A stretch of DNA of 64,000 nt from an uncultured Acidobacteriota bacterium (GCA_963805975.1 CAWDVR010000001.1:1097577-1161576); one strand, 5' to 3'. Positions 4,301-31,300 are shown, counted from the stretch's first letter. Translations and numbers: made by a program. The notes: generated by a model from the sequence alone, not told the origin.

Positions 4301-7300
4301 CCTGGACGGGCTCGCCGGCGCGGGTCGCGAAGGTGGTGCGCAGGGCCTCGTGGCGACGGACGACGGCTTCGAGGCTCTTGGCGAGGGCGGCGAGGTCGAG
4401 GTCTCCCGAGAGCTCGAGCACCGAGGGGATGTTGTAGAAGGCGTTGCCTGGCACCAGGCGGTCGAGGAACCACAGGCGCTGCTGAGCGAAAGAGAGCGGC
4501 AGGTCGCGTTCGCGGGAGACCGGTACGATCGGCGCGGAGGCGAGTCCGGCCTGTTGGCGCAGCAAGCCGGCGATCTCTCGGGCGAGGGCCTCGACGGTGG
4601 GGTTTTCGAACAGAGTCCGGATCGGCAGGTCGACGTGGAAGAGGTCGCGGATGCGGGAGATGGCGCGGGTGGCGAGGAGCGAATGGCCCCCCAGGGCGAA
4701 GAAGTCGTCCTCGGCTCCGACGGTCTCGACGCCCAGCACCTCGCGCCAGATCTCGCCGACGGTCTGCTCGATGCCGGTGCGTGGGGGAAGGGCCGGGGCG
4801 GGCCTGACGGGTCCGGGCTCGAGGTCGCGCAGCAGGGCTTCGTGGTCGAGCTTGCCGCGCGCGGTCAGCGGCAGCTCGGGCACGAGGCGAAGCGACGACG
4901 GCACCAGGTAGGCCGGCAGGGTTTCGGCGAGATGGTCGCGCAGCTCGGTCTCGTGGATCTCGGCGGCGGGCACGACCCAGGCGAGCAGGCGGCGGTCTCC
5001 CGGGGTGATCTCGGGGCACAGCACCACCGCGGCGGCGACCGCCGGGTGGGCCCGCAGCACGGCTTCGACCTCGGCGGGCTCGATGCGGAAGCCGCGCAGC
5101 TTGAGCTGGCGATCGAGCCGGCCGAGCAGCTCGAGCGTGCCGTCGGGGCGGAAGCGGGCGCGGTCGCCGGTACGGTAGAGGCGCTCGCCGTCGCCGAGCA
5201 AGGCCGGCACGAAGCGCTCGGCGGTGGCGGCCGGCCGGCCGTGGTAGCCGCGGGCGAGGCCACGGCCGCCGAGGACGAGCTCGCCCGCCACGCCGAGCGG
5301 CACCGGTCGCTGCCGCTCGTCGAGGATCAGGGCCGTGGTGTCGGCGATCGGTCGGCCGATGGACACCGGGTCGCTCACTTCGGCCGGCGAGGCCATTGGC
5401 CAGCAGGCGGCGAAGGTGGTGCTCTCGGTCGGGCCGTAGCCGTTGATCAGACGCAGCCCGGGAGCGCTCGCGAGCACCCGCCGCACCGGCTCGGGAGCGA
5501 GCACGTCCCCGCCCGCGAGGAGCTGGCGCACACCGGTGAGGGAACCCAGCTCGGCCGCCGCCATTTCGTGGAAGAGGCCCGCGGTCAGCCACAGCACGCT
5601 CACCCGGTGACGACGCAGCTCTTCACCGATCGCCGCCAGCGAGAGCGGTCCCGGCGGAGCGATCACCAGGCGCCCGCCGTGGAGGAGCGCGCCCCAGACC
5701 TCGAAGGTCGCGGCGTCGAAGCCCAGGGGGGAGTGCTGGAAGAACGTCTCGCGCGACGAGAGCTCGACGTAGCTCACCTCGCGCAACAGCCGCACCACCC
5801 CGCGGTGGCAGACGGCCACCCCCTTCGGCCGGCCGGTAGTACCCGAGGTGTACATCGTGTAGAGCAGGCTCTCGCCGTCCACCGGTCCTGCCGGTCCTCC
5901 CTCAGCACCCGGCGCCAGGAGCTCGCCGAACGAGAGAGAAGGCAAGCCCGTCGCCTCGCGCAAGCCCCCGACGAGCGCCCGCGCTCCGGCGTCGGCGAGC
6001 TTCCAGGCCCGACGCTCCGGCGGGTCCTCGGGATCGAGCGGCACGAAGAAGGCGCCGGCCTGGGCGACGGCGAGAAGAGCCGCGTAGACCTCCAGCCGCC
6101 GCTCACCGTAGACCGCGACCGCTGCTTCGGCACCGATCCCCAACCCCCGCAGACGCGCTGCGCCACGGCCGGCCGCGCGGGCGAGGCCCTCGTAGCTCAG
6201 GTGCTCCTCGCCCGCCACCAGCGCCACCCCCTCCGGACGCACCGCCCGCTGGCGGGCGAACAGGCTCACCACCGTCTCGCCCGACGATCCGCTCGTCCCC
6301 CCGTCCATCGTCCCCGTATCACTCCACTCGACGAGCAACTGCTGACGCTCCGGCGGGGAGAGGGAGAAGCGGGCTGGTGCGAGGGGGTTGTCGGCCATGG
6401 TGTCGAGGGCTTGGTGGTAGAGGTCCCACCAGCGTTGGATCTCGGTCCTGGCGAAGCGGTGGGCGTCGTAGCCGAGGTCGAGGACGATCTCGCTGCTTTC
6501 GGGGTGGAGGCTGAAGTTGACGACGAGAGGCAGGTCGGTGGCTTCGAAGATGTCTCCGCCGAGGATGTCGAGGTCGGCGTCTTGGGCGAGGGATCGCAGG
6601 ACGTGGAAGTGGAGGAAGTTGAAGACGACCTCGAAGAGGGGTCGGTCGGCGAGGCGTCGCAGCTCGGCCATGGGGTAGCGGCGGTGGGGGAGGATCTGTT
6701 GCTCGCGGTCGAAGGTTCGTTGGGCGAGCTCGAGCCAGGAGCCGTGGCCGAGGTCGAGTCGCACGGGCAGGGTGTTGAGGAAGAGTCCGAGGATGCGTTC
6801 TCCGCCTTCGCTCTCGGGCCGTCCGTGGGTGGCGAGGCCGGTGGTGACGTCGTCGTCGCCGGTGAGGGTGCCAAGGACGGTGAGGTGGGCAGCGAGGAGG
6901 ACGCTCTTGAGGGGGACGCCGGCTTGTCGGGCGAAGGCTTCGAGGCCCCGGGTGATCGCGGGGGCGAGGGGGCGCGAGAGGCGTTCGACCCGGGGCAGCT
7001 CGCTCGCCGCGAGCCGGGCACGGCCGGGCAGAGCGCTCGGTGGCTCGTCGAGCCTGCCGGTCGTCAGCCAGAAGCGGCGGGCCTCGGGGCTCGCGAGGGC
7101 CTGCCGTTCGAGGGCCACGAAGTCGCGGAACGAGGCGTCGAGCGGCGGCAGGTCGAGAGCGGGCTCGCGGTAGAGCCGAAACAGCTCGCCGAGCATCGTC
7201 GCGACGCTCCAGCCGTCGAGGATCGCGTGATGGCAGGCGAGGGTCAGTTGCAGCGTCAGGTCGGTGCGTCGGTGCCAGGCATAGCGCAGGAGCGGGGGTT

Positions 7301-28300: not shown

Positions 28301-31300
28301 TGAAGATCACGTAGGCGATCTGCTCGCCGAGGATCGGCGGCGCCGCGAGCGCCTCCCCTGTCGTGCCCGCTGGGTCGTAGCCGTCGAGATCGATCGGCTC
28401 GACTCCCGGCGGTGGCTCGAGCGGCGAGGAGCCGTGGACGAGGAGGAGCGTGGCGCCCACCTCGCGCAGCATGCGGTGGGAGCGCTCCGGCGGGTGGGCC
28501 GGGTCGAGGGGAAGGTAGAAGCCGCCAGCCTCGAGGACGGCGAGGATCGCGACGATCAGAGCGGGCGAGCGCTCGAGCCCGAGGCCGACGGGCGTCTCCG
28601 TGGTCACCCCCAGCGCGCGGAGCCGGCGGGCGAGGTGGCTCGCCCGGCGTCGCAGCTCGCCGTAGGAGATCTGCTCGGCCCCGCCACCCAGCGCGCCGCC
28701 GACCAGGGCTACGGCATCCGGCTGCCGCTCCGCCACCCGGGCGAAGAGCTGGTGGATCGCCGTCACCGAGTCCGCGTCCCGAGCGCGCACCGCCGGGTTC
28801 CACTCGTGGAGGACCTGCTGCCGTTCGGCCGCGCTCCAGGGTAGGAAGCGCTCGTGCCTGGCCGCCGGGTCCGCCGCCATCGCCGCCAGGGTCCGCCGGT
28901 AGCACGCCGACCAGCGCTCGATCTCCGTGTCGTCGAACCGGCGGCGATCGTGAGCGAGGAAGAGCCCCGCCTGCCGGCCGTCGGGCTCGAGATGGAAGTT
29001 GAGCAGCAGGGGTAGATCAGTCGCCTCGACGAAACGACTGTCCAGGATCGCCAGCTCGCCCTCGTGCCGCGCGAGGTCGCGGTAGACGTAGTAGTGGAAG
29101 AAGTTGAACGCAGTGTCGAAGAGCGGCTGGCCGTCCCGCAGGCGGCGTATCTCGGCCATCGGATAGCGGCGGTGGGGCAGCACCTCGCGCTCGTGCGCGA
29201 GGGTTCGCCGGACGAGGTCCACCCAGCTGCCGGCCGAGAGGGACAACCGGAAAGGGACCGTGTTGAGGAAGAGGCCGAGAATGCGGTCGCCGTCCTCCTC
29301 CTCCGGACGGCCGTGAAGCACCAACCCGGTGGTCACCCGCCCAGCGCCGCAGAGCCGGCCGAGGACCGCGAGGTGGGCGGCGAGGAGGACACTCTTGAGA
29401 GGCGCCTCCGCCTGGGCGGCGAGGCGGCGCAGGCCGGCGGTGATCTCCGGCGAGAAGGCGAGCGAACGCTGCTCGACCTCGCGTGGAGCGGCCGCTACCG
29501 GCGCAGTCCCGCCGGCCAGCCAGGGCGGAGCCTCGTCGGTCTCTCCCTGCCAGAAGACGCGGTGCTCCCCGGCGGCCAGAACCGCCTGCTCGAGGGCGAC
29601 GAAATCCCGAAAGTGACCCTGCGGCGCGGCCGGCAGGGCTGCTAGCTCGTCCTGCCGGGCAAGATAGGTGGCGAGAAGCTCGGTGACCAGGGACGCCAGG
29701 CTCCAGCCGTCGAGGATGGCGTGATGGAAGCTCAGAGTGAGCTGGAAACGGCCGTCTCCCCGCGGGTGCGCCTGGCAGCGCAGGAGGGGCGGCCGCGCGA
29801 GGTCGAACGGCCGTCGTTTCTCGCTCGCGATGGCAGCCGCGATCGCACTTTCCTGGGCGATGGCCGGCAGGCCACGCAGGTCGGTCACCGCCAGGGGCAC
29901 CACGGCACGCCAGTGCACCCGTTGCAGCGGCTCGCCGAAGCTCCCGAGGTCGAAGGAGGTCCGCAGGGTCGGATGCCGGCGGACGACGACTTCGAGGCTC
30001 CGTCGCAGCCGCCGGGCATCGAAGTCGCCGCGCAGATGGTAGGTGAAGACGTCGTGGTAGAGGCCGGCCTCGCCCTCCGCCTCGCCGTGAAAGAGCATGC
30101 CGGCCTGGAGCCGGGTCAGGGGATAGGCGTCCTCGACATCGGCCGGAAGTCGTTGCCGGACCTCGGCCGGGACGAGCGCGAAGGGCCTCGGGCGAGGGAC
30201 GGTACCGCCAGGAACCGCCTCGCCCGCCAGCTGGGCGAGATCCGCGATCACCGGATGGCGGAAGATCTGCTCCAGGGTGAGCGCGAGCCCGACCGCCGCG
30301 GCGCGCGCGCGGATCTGCAGGCCGCGGATCGAGTCCCCACCGAGATCGAAGAAGCTGTCGAGGACGCCCACCTCCCGGTGCCCCAGGACCGCCGCGAAGA
30401 TCTCCGCCAGCCGCTTCTCGGCCGGCGTTTCCGGCGCCTGGTACGGCCGGCCCCGGCGGGCTGCCGCATGAGCCTCGCCGCCACGGAGCGCATGGTGGGC
30501 GAGGGCGGCACGGTCGAGCTTGCCATTCACCGTCAGCGGCATGGCGGCCAGCACCACGAAGCTCGCCGGGATCATCGACGGCGGCAGGATCGCGGCGAGG
30601 TGGCGGCGCAGGGCCGGAGCGCTGAGGGCCGGATTCAAGATGCCGGAGGACGCTCCGGACGCCGGGTCCGCCGGTGTCACGACCGCGACGAGCCGGGCCG
30701 GCTCGTCGCGGTCCCGGTGGACCAGGACGGCGGCTTCCCCGACCGCCGGGCAGCGGGCGAGGGCGGCCTCGACCTCGCCGGTCTCGATGCGGAAGCCGCG
30801 GATCTTCACCTGCTGGTCGGTGCGGCCGAGGTACTCCAGACGGCCATCCGCCCGGCGGCGGGCGAGGTCGCCGCTGCGGTAGAGCCGGGCGCCGGCGTCC
30901 CGACTCCAGGGATGGGGCAGGAAGCGGCTGGCGGACTCGGCGGGCCGCTGCCAATAGCCACGGGCGAGCCCGGCGCCCCCGACGTGGATCTCCCCGGTGA
31001 CCCCCAACCCTACCGGCTCGCCGCGGCGATCGAGGAGGTAGGTCTCCCAGGCCGGCAGGGGCCGGCCGATCGGACTCGCCGGGGAGCAGCTCTCTATCTC
31101 CGGGCGGCCGATCCGCTGGCAGGTCACGTGGACCGTGGTCTCGGTGATGCCGTAGAGATTGAAGAGCCGCGGCTCACGATCGCCGAAGCGCTCGATCCAT
31201 GGCCGCAGGCTTTCTGGCGTCAGGGCCTCGCCGCCGAAGACGATCTGCCGGAGCGGCGGCTGGGCCGGAGCCGTGAGGGCCACGTCTTGGTAGCTGCGAA

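What the first reader, a model, noticed from the sequence alone, without database searches (positions are those of the whole stretch)
6370..30200. Every Thr-activating module is followed by a GGDSI carrier domain and a distinct, E-less condensation subtype (C*)
- The hand-extracted specificity codes give exactly three Thr-type A domains: module 1 (DFWSVGLVH), module 2 (DFWNIGLVH) and module 8 (DFWNIGMVH).
- These three modules, plus module 5 which has a real E domain, are the only ones whose carrier motif is GGDSI. The others have GGHSL or GAHSL.
- Each Thr module is followed directly by a condensation domain of a different sequence type. It starts DVEDAYPL(T/S)RLQ(A/W)GM...GLYHDVF(T/S)Y and has an HH(A/V)ILDGWS active site. 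The three copies are at about 28850-30140, 25600-26916 and 6370-7646.
- The ordinary C domains instead start LSFAQ(Q/R)RL(W/F)FL and have HHI(V/A)(S/A/T)DG.
- C* resembles the post-E C domain at 15930-17225 (ALYPLAPLQEGLLFH, HHAILDGWS).
- From established knowledge, GGDSI carriers usually serve epimerising partners. DCL-like C domains without an upstream E domain are the architecture of dual E/C domains. Separately, a modifying C clade dehydrates Ser/Thr.
- I found no HH pair in the first 60 or so residues of any C*. I recall such a pair as the extra dual-E/C motif.
- The strict Thr-to-C* coupling suggests a Thr-specific outcome, either D-allo-Thr or dehydrobutyrine.
Basis: partly seen in the sequence, partly recalled or inferred. 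Interest (0 to 1): 0.7.

Follow-up and report, generated by a model that had tools for sequence, protein, structure and literature searches.

The report
Threonine-dehydrating condensation domains, orphan NRPS
In a giant peptide-assembling enzyme from an uncultured acidobacterium, every threonine-loading module passes its product to a known special coupling domain that most likely removes water to give dehydrobutyrine. The pattern is real, but it is an already described design rule.

Summary
One minus-strand ORF (window 3-33464, >11,154 aa, cut at the left edge) encodes Cs-A-T | C*-A-T | C*-A-T | C-T | C-A-T-E | C-A-T | C-A-T | C-A-T | C*-A-T | C-A-T | C-.

- Only A1, A2 and A8 carry Thr codes: DFWSVGLVHK, DFWNIGLVHK and DFWNIGMVHK.
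- Only T1, T2, T8 and the pre-E T5 carry GGDSI.
- Only those three Thr modules are followed by C*.

C* is not a new subtype and not a dual E/C domain. It belongs to the CmodAA (dehydrating condensation, DHC) clade.
- Its best solved relatives are McyA2-C (324-376 bits) and AmbE CmodAA (206-236 bits). DCL domains score at most 153 bits.
- An NJ tree joins C* to these two references with 99% bootstrap.
- The published CmodAA motifs KSVLLAAH and RR-at-C6 are present only in C*.
- The dual-E/C N-terminal HH motif is absent.

The published rule is that DHC domains have T_E-type (GGDSI) donor carriers and dehydrate Ser/Thr before condensation. The same coupling appears in 80 unrelated loci (87/90 against 7/64).

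The predicted product begins acyl-Dhb-Dhb-Val-X-D-Leu-Val-Leu-Dhb-Val-. The host is a Thermoanaerobaculia bacterium, and the NRPS has no relative above 50% identity.

Verdict: a new member of a known kind, of modest interest.

The parts
3..33449 (-). Giant NRPS ORF. It is more than 11,149 aa and its 3' part lies beyond the window. The first ATG is at 33449, with an alternative ATG at 33401.
   Evidence: Stop-free frame with GC3 of 0.90. Start candidates. Pfam architecture.
32040..33383 (-). Starter condensation domain Cs (HHLVMDA). It N-acylates Thr1.
   Evidence: Pfam Condensation, 256 bits. It branches at the base of the LCL clade. Its motif is HHLVMDA.
30465..31922 (-). A1, Thr-type adenylation domain with code DFWSVGLVHK.
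   Evidence: S278/V299 variants are listed among Thr/Dhb codes in PMC12283262.
30195..30428 (-). T1, a T_E-type carrier (GGDSI, Ser at aa 1045).
28797..30143 (-). C2*, a CmodAA/dehydrating condensation domain. HHAILDG lies at 29706-29726, KSVLLAAH at 29373-29396 and RRYP at about 29163-29174.
   Evidence: PDB best hits are McyA2-C at 376 bits and AmbE at 236 bits. Motifs. Tree.
27225..28757 (-). A2, Thr-type adenylation domain with code DFWNIGLVHK.
26970..27197 (-). T2, a T_E-type carrier (GGDSI, Ser at aa 2122).
25539..26918 (-). C3*, a CmodAA/dehydrating condensation domain. HHVILDG lies at 26478-26498, KSVLLAAH at 26127-26150 and RRFP at 25896-25907.
   Evidence: PDB best hits are McyA2-C at 324 bits and AmbE at 206 bits..
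7965..9467 (-). A8, adenylation domain with the canonical Thr code DFWNIGMVHK.
   Evidence: The code is identical to that of the Thr-activating DhbF2 (PMC4169593).
7695..7934 (-). T8, a T_E-type carrier (GGDSI, Ser at aa 8543).
6321..7649 (-). C9*, a CmodAA/dehydrating condensation domain. HHAILDG lies at 7212-7232, KSVLLAAH at 6885-6908 and RRYP at 6672-6683.
   Evidence: PDB best hits are McyA2-C at 370 bits and AmbE at 208 bits..
17295..18896 (-). T5 (GGDSI) plus a genuine epimerization domain E5 (HHLVMDS, FNYLG). This is the internal comparator for T_E-type carriers.
15858..17231 (-). C6, the post-E condensation domain of DCL type. This is an internal comparator.
   Evidence: PDB best hits are McyB1 at 343 bits, then PvdL, BacC and SrfA-C. 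McyA scores only 117 bits. It sits in the DCL clade with bootstrap 99.
12681..14057 (-). C7, representative of the six ordinary LCL-type domains (C4, C5, C7, C8, C10, C11).
   Evidence: PDB best hits are Txo2, Txo1 and TycC6. McyA scores 90 bits. LCL clade.

Best explanation
C2*, C3* and C9* are dehydrating condensation domains of the CmodAA clade, also called DHC.

**Proposed course of events.**
1. Each Thr module (A1, A2, A8) loads L-Thr on a T_E-type carrier (GGDSI).
2. The module's own upstream C domain attaches the acyl or peptidyl chain.
3. The downstream C* then takes this peptidyl-Thr-S-T as its donor.
4. C* removes the alpha-proton and eliminates the beta-hydroxyl, giving peptidyl-dehydrobutyrine-S-T.
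5. The same HHxxxDG site then condenses this intermediate with the next aminoacyl-S-T.

**Predicted product.** The part of the lipopeptide encoded in the window is acyl-Dhb-Dhb-Val-X-D-Leu-Val-Leu-Dhb-Val-X-. X at position 4 comes from an A-less C-T module.

**Shown here.**
- Domain order.
- Thr codes.
- Carrier type.
- Clade membership and signature motifs.

**Inferred.**
- The chemical outcome (loss of H2O).
- Its timing before condensation. This is taken from in vitro work on AlbB and AmbE, summarised in PMC10880069.
- The Dhb geometry (E or Z) cannot be predicted.
For: **Similarity to solved structures.**
- For all three C*, phmmer against PDB puts McyA2-C (8jbr) first at 376/324/370 bits. 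This domain follows the Ser module that yields N-methyl-dehydroalanine.
- AmbE CmodAA (7r9x, 'dehydrating condensation domain') comes second at 236/206/208 bits.
- The best DCL domain scores 137-153 bits.
- Controls behave as expected. Post-E C6 hits DCLs and C7 hits LCLs.
- BLASTP identity to McyA2-C is 41-45% over 99% of the length. The other C domains are 24-30% identical.

**Phylogeny.** The NJ tree has 68 domains and 453 columns.
- The three C* group with McyA2-C, AmbE and 20 GGDS-preceded domains with bootstrap 99.
- This clade is sister to the post-E clade with bootstrap 91.
- It is separate from the LCL clade, which contains C4, C5, C7, C8, C10 and C11.

**Published CmodAA-only motifs** (PMC11342130).
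- [K/R]SVLLAAH before motif C5 is present in all three C* and in none of the other nine C/E domains.
- RR at the start of motif C6 shows the same distribution.
- 20 positions are clade-specific in the related loci. They include K250, H257, T272, E281, E318 and R325. The C* carry 16-18 of them.

**Published rule.** DHC donors are T_E-type GGDSI carriers, and dehydration precedes condensation (PMC10880069).

**Generality, from 80 loci in many phyla**.
- The T domain before a modAA-like C domain is GGDS[I/M/L] in 87 of 90 cases.
- The same motif precedes LCL-type domains in 7 of 64 cases (p = 2e-30).
- The upstream A code is Thr-type in 36 of 66 cases and Ser-type in 6 of 66.

**Thr codes.** DFWNIGMVHK is the code of the Thr-activating DhbF2.
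Against: - No chemistry was measured, and the product is unknown.
- Clade membership does not guarantee dehydration. In the related loci some modAA-like domains follow Val- or Asn/Asp-coded modules, which have no beta-hydroxyl unless a hydroxylase acts first.
- The review notes that the catalytic residues mapped in AmbE are not conserved across DHCs.
- No dual E/C reference sequences could be placed in the tree.
- The modAA comparison set was recruited by similarity to C2*. The 20-position signature is therefore partly circular.
Confidence: 0.85

Rival explanations
1. C* are dual epimerization/condensation (E/C) domains. They would convert L-Thr to D-allo-Thr before condensation, and the residue would keep its hydroxyl.
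For: - The architecture matches: a GGDSI carrier followed directly by a D-clade C domain with no E domain.
- C* share the YPL..Q and HHAILDGWS motifs with the post-E domain.
- Both domain classes begin by removing the alpha-proton (PMC10880069).
Against: - The defining second His motif HH[I/L]xxxxGD near the N-terminus (PMC1894796) is absent. The only HH is the active-site one.
- C* group with McyA2-C and AmbE at bootstrap 99.
- C* carry the CmodAA-only KSVLLAAH and RR motifs.
- No dual E/C reference was available for direct comparison.
Confidence: 0.04
2. C* are condensation-only domains of modAA ancestry. Thr would be incorporated unchanged, for example to serve later as a lactonisation or glycosylation site.
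For: - The HHxxxDG motif is intact, so condensation is certainly possible.
- Some modAA-like domains in other loci follow residues that have no beta-hydroxyl, so not every clade member need dehydrate.
Against: - Every Thr module in the window, and no other module, is followed by C* (p = 0.008). A substrate-blind condensation domain would not be expected to show this.
- All donor-side signature residues of the clade are kept.
- Characterised members acting on Ser/Thr do dehydrate.
Confidence: 0.07
3. C* dehydrate Thr but then carry out a further CmodAA-type reaction on the Dhb intermediate. Candidates are conjugate addition or ring formation, as in the bleomycin, pyrrolizidine or beta-lactam systems. 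The final residues would then not be simple Dhb.
For: The CmodAA clade contains sub-groups with such extra chemistry (PMC11342130; PMC10880069).
Against: - The conjugate-addition sub-groups have lost one or both active-site histidines. C* keep HH(A/V)ILDG.
- The nearest characterised relative is McyA2-C, a simple dehydration-plus-condensation type.
- Each C* is followed by an ordinary A-T module.
Confidence: 0.04

Closest known systems
McyA2-C, the second-module C domain of microcystin synthetase McyA (PDB 8jbr). It is the prototype of the NaPDoS 'modAA' class.
   Same: - It is the best solved relative: 41-45% identity over the full length and 324-376 bits.
- It shares KSVLLAAH, RRYP and HHxILDGWS.
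- It follows a beta-hydroxy-amino-acid module whose residue ends up dehydrated (Ser to Mdha).
   Different: - The McyA donor is N-methyl-Ser from an A-NMT-T module in a PKS/NRPS hybrid. Here the donor is unmethylated Thr.
- McyA has one such domain, whereas this protein has three.
- The host is cyanobacterial, not acidobacterial.
AmbE CmodAA (PDB 7r9x), the structurally and biochemically characterised dehydrating condensation domain of AMB biosynthesis.
   Same: - It is the second-best solved relative: 36-42% identity and 206-236 bits.
- It falls in the same clade (bootstrap 99).
- It has the same K/R-SxLLAAH helix and the same RR motif.
   Different: AmbE acts on a 3-hydroxy-4-methoxy-Glu dipeptide. 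It passes the product to a second T domain and does not form a normal peptide bond.
AlbB-C2 and AlbB-C3 of albopeptide biosynthesis. These are consecutive DHC domains that give contiguous Dha-E-Dhb.
   Same: - Two dehydrating C domains act in tandem on adjacent Ser/Thr residues, as C2* and C3* would on Thr1 and Thr2.
- The donors are T_E-type.
- Dehydration was shown to precede condensation (PMC10880069).
   Different: - Albopeptide is a tripeptide system, and its last DHC hydrolyses where C2* and C3* would condense.
Crz1-C2 of corallorazine biosynthesis (Cs-A(Ser)-T-CmodAA).
   Same: The opening logic is the same: a starter C domain acylates a beta-hydroxy amino acid, and the next CmodAA domain then dehydrates it (PMC11342130).
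   Different: Corallorazine uses Ser to give Dha in a bimodular lipodipeptide. This NRPS uses Thr and has at least 11 modules.
Dual E/C domains of Pseudomonas lipopeptide synthetases, for example arthrofactin.
   Same: - They have no E domain.
- The donor carrier is GGDSI.
- They belong to the D-clade.
- Chemistry at the alpha-carbon occurs before condensation.
   Different: The N-terminal HH[I/L]xxxxGD motif is absent from C*. The outcome is epimerisation, not dehydration.

Membership tests
CmodAA / dehydrating condensation (DHC) domains | Groups phylogenetically or by similarity with characterised members (AmbE CmodAA, McyA2-C), not with LCL, DCL or E domains. | tested here: met
   These two are the PDB top hits for all three C*, 170-220 bits ahead of the third-ranked hit (McyB1, a DCL). 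NJ clade bootstrap is 99.
CmodAA / dehydrating condensation (DHC) domains | [K/R]SVLLAAH motif immediately N-terminal of core motif C5 (PMC11342130). | tested here: met
   KSVLLAAH is present in C2*, C3* and C9* and absent from the other nine C/E domains.
CmodAA / dehydrating condensation (DHC) domains | One or two Arg residues at the start of core motif C6 (PMC11342130). | tested here: met
   The C* read HRRYP, HRRFP and HRRYP. The other domains have no RR at the aligned position. R325 is conserved in 98% of modAA-like domains and in 0% of DCL and LCL domains.
CmodAA / dehydrating condensation (DHC) domains | Upstream donor carrier of T_E type (GGDSI) with no intervening E domain (PMC10880069). 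| tested here: met
   T1, T2 and T8 carry GGDSI. They are 44-59% identical to each other and to the pre-E T5, and 28-42% identical to the GGHSL carriers.
CmodAA / dehydrating condensation (DHC) domains | The donor residue carries a beta-hydroxyl (Ser, Thr or a hydroxylated residue). | tested here: met
   A1, A2 and A8 carry Thr codes. The canonical code equals that of DhbF2.
CmodAA / dehydrating condensation (DHC) domains | Catalyses alpha,beta-dehydration of the donor, seen as a loss of 18 Da in the product. | not testable with these tools
   This needs MS of the product or of enzyme-bound intermediates.
Dual E/C domains | A second His motif HH[I/L]xxxxGD near the N-terminus, overlapping motifs C1/C2 (PMC1894796). 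| tested here: not met
   The only HH in each C* is the active-site pair at domain position 140-141, and a regex search for the motif is negative.
Dual E/C domains | Clusters with verified dual E/C sequences. | not tested
   No dual E/C reference could be obtained. Burkholderia plasmid loci L081 and L082 and the 80 genome loci contained none.
DCL condensation domains | Lies immediately downstream of an E domain and groups with post-E C domains. | tested here: not met
   C* follow a T domain directly. The post-E clade, which contains the window's own C6, is separate with bootstrap 99.
LCL condensation domains | Groups with LCL references. The donor carrier is GGHSL and the N-terminal motif is LSFAQ-type. 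| tested here: not met
   C* are 27-33% identical to the window's LCL domains. TycC6 and Txo score at most 109 bits against C*, but 250-364 bits against C7.

The most novel reading that the evidence does not exclude
The three C* form a lineage of their own. They are 52-54% identical to each other (bootstrap 91). No database relative of T1-C2* exceeds about 49% identity, and no solved C domain exceeds 45% to any C*. The host belongs to an uncultured acidobacterial class.

The evidence does not exclude that they do more than plain Thr-to-Dhb conversion. Possibilities are stereochemically unusual (E-selective, syn) elimination, or use of the N-terminal acyl-Dhb-Dhb pair for a further ring-forming or conjugate-addition step. 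Either would give a lipopeptide scaffold with no described counterpart.
Probability: 0.08. Interest if true: 0.55.

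Novelty: new member of a known kind. Interest (0 to 1): 0.25.

Why it matters
**Structure prediction.** The result turns an ambiguous reading (D-allo-Thr or Dhb) into a specific prediction. The lipopeptide would begin acyl-Dhb-Dhb and carry a third Dhb at position 8. Dhb residues stiffen peptides, protect them from proteases and can act as electrophiles, so they matter for bioactivity.

**Source.** The gene comes from Thermoanaerobaculia (Acidobacteriota). I found no characterised nonribosomal peptide from this class in one paper search. 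The cluster is therefore a reasonable target for heterologous expression.

**General rule.** The survey of 80 loci gives independent, quantitative support for the published rule. A GGDSI carrier followed by an E-less D-clade C domain that carries KSVLLAAH indicates dehydration, not epimerisation. Genome-mining tools that label such domains 'DCL' or 'dual' would mispredict stereochemistry and mass.

No new enzymology is implied.

Tried and rejected
- **The ORF listing.** It does not list the NRPS because the gene runs off the window. The long plus-strand ORFs it lists over 3.7-32.6 kb are antisense shadow ORFs, with GC3 of 0.77 against 0.90.
- **Source genome and orthologous clusters.**
  - The look-up of encoding contigs returned only a 5.5-kb read-assembly contig without DNA for the patatin gene. 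It returned nothing for HtpG or the subtilase.
  - The genome-contig scan returned 80 loci, all at 38-48% identity, so the source species or its BGC was not reached.
  - The protein search with T1-C2* found nothing above 49% identity.
- **Dual E/C references.** A tblastn of the post-E C domain against plasmids led to two Burkholderia NRPS loci (L081, L082). These use E plus DCL and one modAA-like domain, with no dual E/C. None of the 288 C-type domains in the 80 loci has the dual motif either.
- **Papers not held.** Patteson et al. 2022 (AmbE structure) and Wheadon & Townsend 2021 are not in the library. Their content was taken second-hand from PMC11342130 and PMC10880069.
- **NCBIfam.** It has no C-subtype models and gave only sub-threshold hits to whole-NRPS families.
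- **Rejected readings.**
  - C* as a heterocyclisation domain: they have HHxxxDG, not DxxxxD.
  - C* as a degenerate E domain: identity to E5 is 21-23%.

Full report
**What is there.** The window has about 73% G+C over its first 32 kb. A stop-to-stop scan shows one uninterrupted reading frame on the minus strand from 33464 down to position 3. It has 11,154 codons and GC3 of 0.90, and it runs off the left edge. The many long plus-strand ORFs over the same stretch have GC3 near 0.77 and are antisense shadows.

Pfam scans of 12 module-sized pieces give this architecture:

Cs-A-T | C-A-T | C-A-T | C-T | C-A-T-E | C-A-T | C-A-T | C-A-T | C-A-T | C-A-T | C...

Module 4 lacks an A domain.

**Checking the observation.**
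- **Carriers.** The carrier motif is GGDSI in T1, T2, T5 and T8. T3 has GAHSL, and T4, T6, T7, T9 and T10 have GGHSL.
- **A-domain codes.** I aligned the nine A domains and anchored the ten Stachelhaus positions on the FDxS, TPS, GGE, NxYGxTE and GK motifs.
  - A1 is DFWSVGLVHK, A2 is DFWNIGLVHK and A8 is DFWNIGMVHK.
  - The other codes are DALWLGGTFK (A3), DAWFLGHVVK (A5, A7), DAFWLGGTFK (A6, A9) and DVYVITQVVK (A10).
  - DFWNIGMVHK is the code of the Thr-activating DhbF2 (PMC4169593).
  - S278/V299 variants such as DFWSVGMVHK are listed among Thr/Dhb codes (PMC12283262).
- **C\* domains.** The three domains that follow these modules lie at 28797-30143, 25539-26918 and 6321-7649.
  - They begin DVEDAYPL(T/S)RLQ and carry HH(A/V)ILDGWS.
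  - The six ordinary C domains begin LSFAQ(Q/R)RL and carry HHI(V/A)(S/A/T)DG.
  - C* are 52-54% identical to one another, 27-33% to the ordinary C domains, 30-33% to the post-E domain and 21-23% to the E domain.
- **Chance.** Within this one protein the Thr-to-C* pairing is 3/3 against 0/7 (p = 0.008). The pairing of GGDSI with a downstream C* or E is 4/4 against 0/6 (p = 0.005).

**What C\* is.**
- **Solved structures.**
  - A phmmer search of each C* against all PDB chains puts McyA (8jbr) first at 376, 324 and 370 bits, and AmbE (7r9x) second at 236, 206 and 208 bits.
  - The next hit, the DCL domain of McyB, scores only 137-153 bits.
  - 8jbr is McyA2 (C-A-PCP). Its C domain follows the Ser/N-methyl module that ends up as N-methyl-dehydroalanine (bioRxiv 10.1101/2023.11.13.566838).
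  - 7r9x is catalogued as the 'dehydrating condensation domain' of AmbE (PMC10510592).
- **Controls.**
  - The post-E domain C6 hits McyB1, PvdL, bacitracin synthase 3, SrfA-C and TycB, with McyA at only 117 bits.
  - C7 hits Txo2, Txo1 and TycC6, with McyA at 90 bits.
- **Identity.** C* are 41-45% identical to McyA2-C over 99% of their length. The other C domains are 24-30% identical.
- **Tree.**
  - The NJ tree holds the window's 12 domains, McyA2-C, AmbE and 54 context-labelled domains from other genomes. The context labels are E, post-E, after T-GGHSL and after T-GGDS.
  - The three C* sit in a clade with both references and 20 GGDS-preceded domains (bootstrap 99).
  - That clade is sister to the post-E clade containing C6 (bootstrap 99 for the post-E clade, 91 for the pair).
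  - It is apart from the LCL clade containing C4, C5, C7, C8, C10 and C11.

**Family-specific motifs.**
- The corallorazine study compared 50 CmodAA domains with DCL and dual E/C domains (PMC11342130).
  - It reported a CmodAA-only [K/R]SVLLAAH stretch just before motif C5.
  - It also reported one or two arginines opening motif C6.
- All three C* read KSVLLAAH and HRR(Y/F)P. None of the other nine domains does.
- In my own comparison of 91 modAA-like, 33 DCL-like and 135 LCL-like domains, 20 positions are at least 85% conserved in the first group and at most 15% in the others. They include K250, H257, T272, E281, E318 and R325. The C* carry 16-18 of them. This set was recruited by similarity to C2*, so it is partly circular.
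- The dual E/C hallmark is a second His motif HH[I/L]xxxxGD near the N-terminus (PMC1894796). It is absent: the only HH in each C* is the active-site pair.

**The carrier.**
- T1, T2 and T8 differ from the other carriers by more than one residue. They are 44-59% identical to each other and to the pre-E T5, but 28-42% identical to the GGHSL carriers.
- A 2023 review states the rule explicitly (PMC10880069). Donor carriers split into two types.
  - T_C (GGHSL) serves LCL and starter C domains.
  - T_E (GGDSI) serves E, dual C/E, DCL and dehydrating C domains.
- The review adds that putative DHCs in several pathways have T_E donors.
- I tested generality on 80 loci that encode relatives of C2*. 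They come from cyanobacteria, Acidobacteriota, Chloroflexota, Myxococcota, Actinomycetota and others.
  - The T domain upstream of modAA-like C domains is GGDS[I/M/L] in 87 of 90 cases.
  - Upstream of LCL-like domains that motif occurs in 7 of 64 cases, and GGHSL in 56 of 64.
  - Upstream of E domains it is GGDSI in 24 of 27 cases (p = 2e-30).
- The A domain upstream of modAA-like C domains is Thr-type in 36 of 66 cases and Ser-type in 6 of 66.

The triad Thr/Ser-A, T_E carrier and CmodAA is thus a widespread, already described module junction.

**How it most likely works.** In vitro work on AlbB (albopeptide) and AmbE shows that the DHC dehydrates the carrier-bound donor first. The dehydro-peptidyl thioester is then condensed or released. 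This parallels the way dual C/E domains epimerise before they condense (PMC10880069).

Applied here, by inference:
1. Cs acylates Thr on T1.
2. C2* removes H-alpha and eliminates the beta-OH to give acyl-Dhb-S-T1, then couples it to Thr-S-T2.
3. C3* repeats this, giving acyl-Dhb-Dhb, and couples to Val-S-T3.
4. C9* does the same for Thr8.

With the remaining codes, the window-encoded part is predicted as acyl-Dhb-Dhb-Val-X-D-Leu-Val-Leu-Dhb-Val-X-. The Val and Leu assignments rest on my knowledge of Stachelhaus codes and are less certain than Thr. E or Z geometry cannot be predicted, because L-Thr gives E-Dhb with AlbB-C3, whereas Z-Dhb is commoner elsewhere.

**Rivals.**
- **Dual E/C giving D-allo-Thr.** It fails its defining motif test and conflicts with the tree.
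- **Condensation-only domain.** It is hard to reconcile with the strict substrate coupling and the retained donor-side signature.
- **Further chemistry on Dhb.** This is known in CmodAA sub-groups, but those have lost active-site histidines, and C* have not.

None of the three is excluded by experiment.

**Context and novelty.**
- **Host.** HtpG at 51676-53616 is 79-80% identical to HtpG of Thermoanaerobaculia MAGs, and nearly all other named hits are Thermoanaerobaculia or Acidobacteriota. The host is therefore an uncultured acidobacterium, on a 1.5-Mb contig.
- **Relatives.** Nothing above about 49% identity to T1-C2* exists in the protein collection, and nothing above 48% in the species-representative genomes. 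The NRPS is an orphan.
- **Domain type.** The domain type, its carrier partner and its function are all in the literature. Close analogues of the layout also exist: Cs-A(Ser)-T-CmodAA in corallorazine, and tandem DHCs in albopeptide.

I rate this a new member of a known kind. It is useful for structure prediction and as a mining target, but not surprising to an NRPS specialist.

**Limits.**
- No dual E/C reference sequences could be obtained.
- Two primary papers were not readable.
- The 3' part of the gene and the rest of the cluster lie outside the window.
- Nothing chemical was measured.

Noticed in passing
window 21900-23642 (minus strand), NRPS module 4: Module 4 is C-T with no adenylation domain between C4 and T4; only about 50 aa of linker separates them. 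The helix-1 region of T4 carries a repeat-like insertion of about 17 aa (VWAEVLGTEVWGFVTGATAGTAGRGIGW). No stand-alone A domain lies in the 30 kb upstream. Loading in trans, loading by a neighbouring A domain, or module skipping are all possible.
   Followed up: partly
window 13320-15854 versus 3780-6314 (minus strand): A 2,535-nt internal duplication has 98.2% nucleotide identity. It covers A6-T6 plus the N-lobe of C7, and A9-T9 plus the N-lobe of C10. One breakpoint lies at the extreme C-terminus of the preceding C domain. The other lies about 100 aa after HHxxxDG. This looks like a recent recombination of an A-T-C(N-lobe) unit, and it makes residues 6 and 9 the same.
   Followed up: partly
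window 33465-34529 (-) and 34900-36075 (-): A patatin-like phospholipase gene ends 15 nt before the first ATG of the NRPS and is probably co-transcribed with it. It might supply the fatty acid for the starter C domain. An ArsA-type ATPase with an HSP20-like domain lies just upstream. No FAAL or ACP gene is present.
   Followed up: no
window about 32000-40000: G+C drops from about 73% to 58-64% immediately upstream of the NRPS. The stretch contains a 647-aa radical-SAM ORF (36921-38861, +) and an amino-acid permease (39450-40841, +). This may be a foreign insertion, or simply the edge of the cluster.
   Followed up: no
loci L006, L036, L039, L042, L045, L048, L054, L056, L065 (mainly Acidobacteriota), and L033, L043, L063, L066, L068, L072: Many modAA-like C domains outside the window follow A domains with Asn/Asp-like codes (DLTK[IVL]GEVGK, 12 of 66) or Val-like codes (6 of 66), not Thr or Ser codes. 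They often carry a variant of the KSVLLAAH motif. This suggests hydroxylation followed by dehydration, as for the dehydro-Val of myxovalargin, or some other chemistry in acidobacterial NRPSs.
   Followed up: partly
window 48715-50085 (-), 50134-51468 (-), 53699-55486 (-): Three large ORFs of 445-596 aa have coding-like GC3 (0.89-0.91) but no Pfam match at all.
   Followed up: no
window 51676-53616 (+) and 58843-63999: HtpG places the contig in Thermoanaerobaculia (79-80% identity to MAG proteins). The right end of the window carries a polysaccharide-type set of genes: two NAD-dependent epimerase/dehydratases, a methyltransferase and a Wzx-like flippase. These are unrelated to the NRPS.
   Followed up: partly
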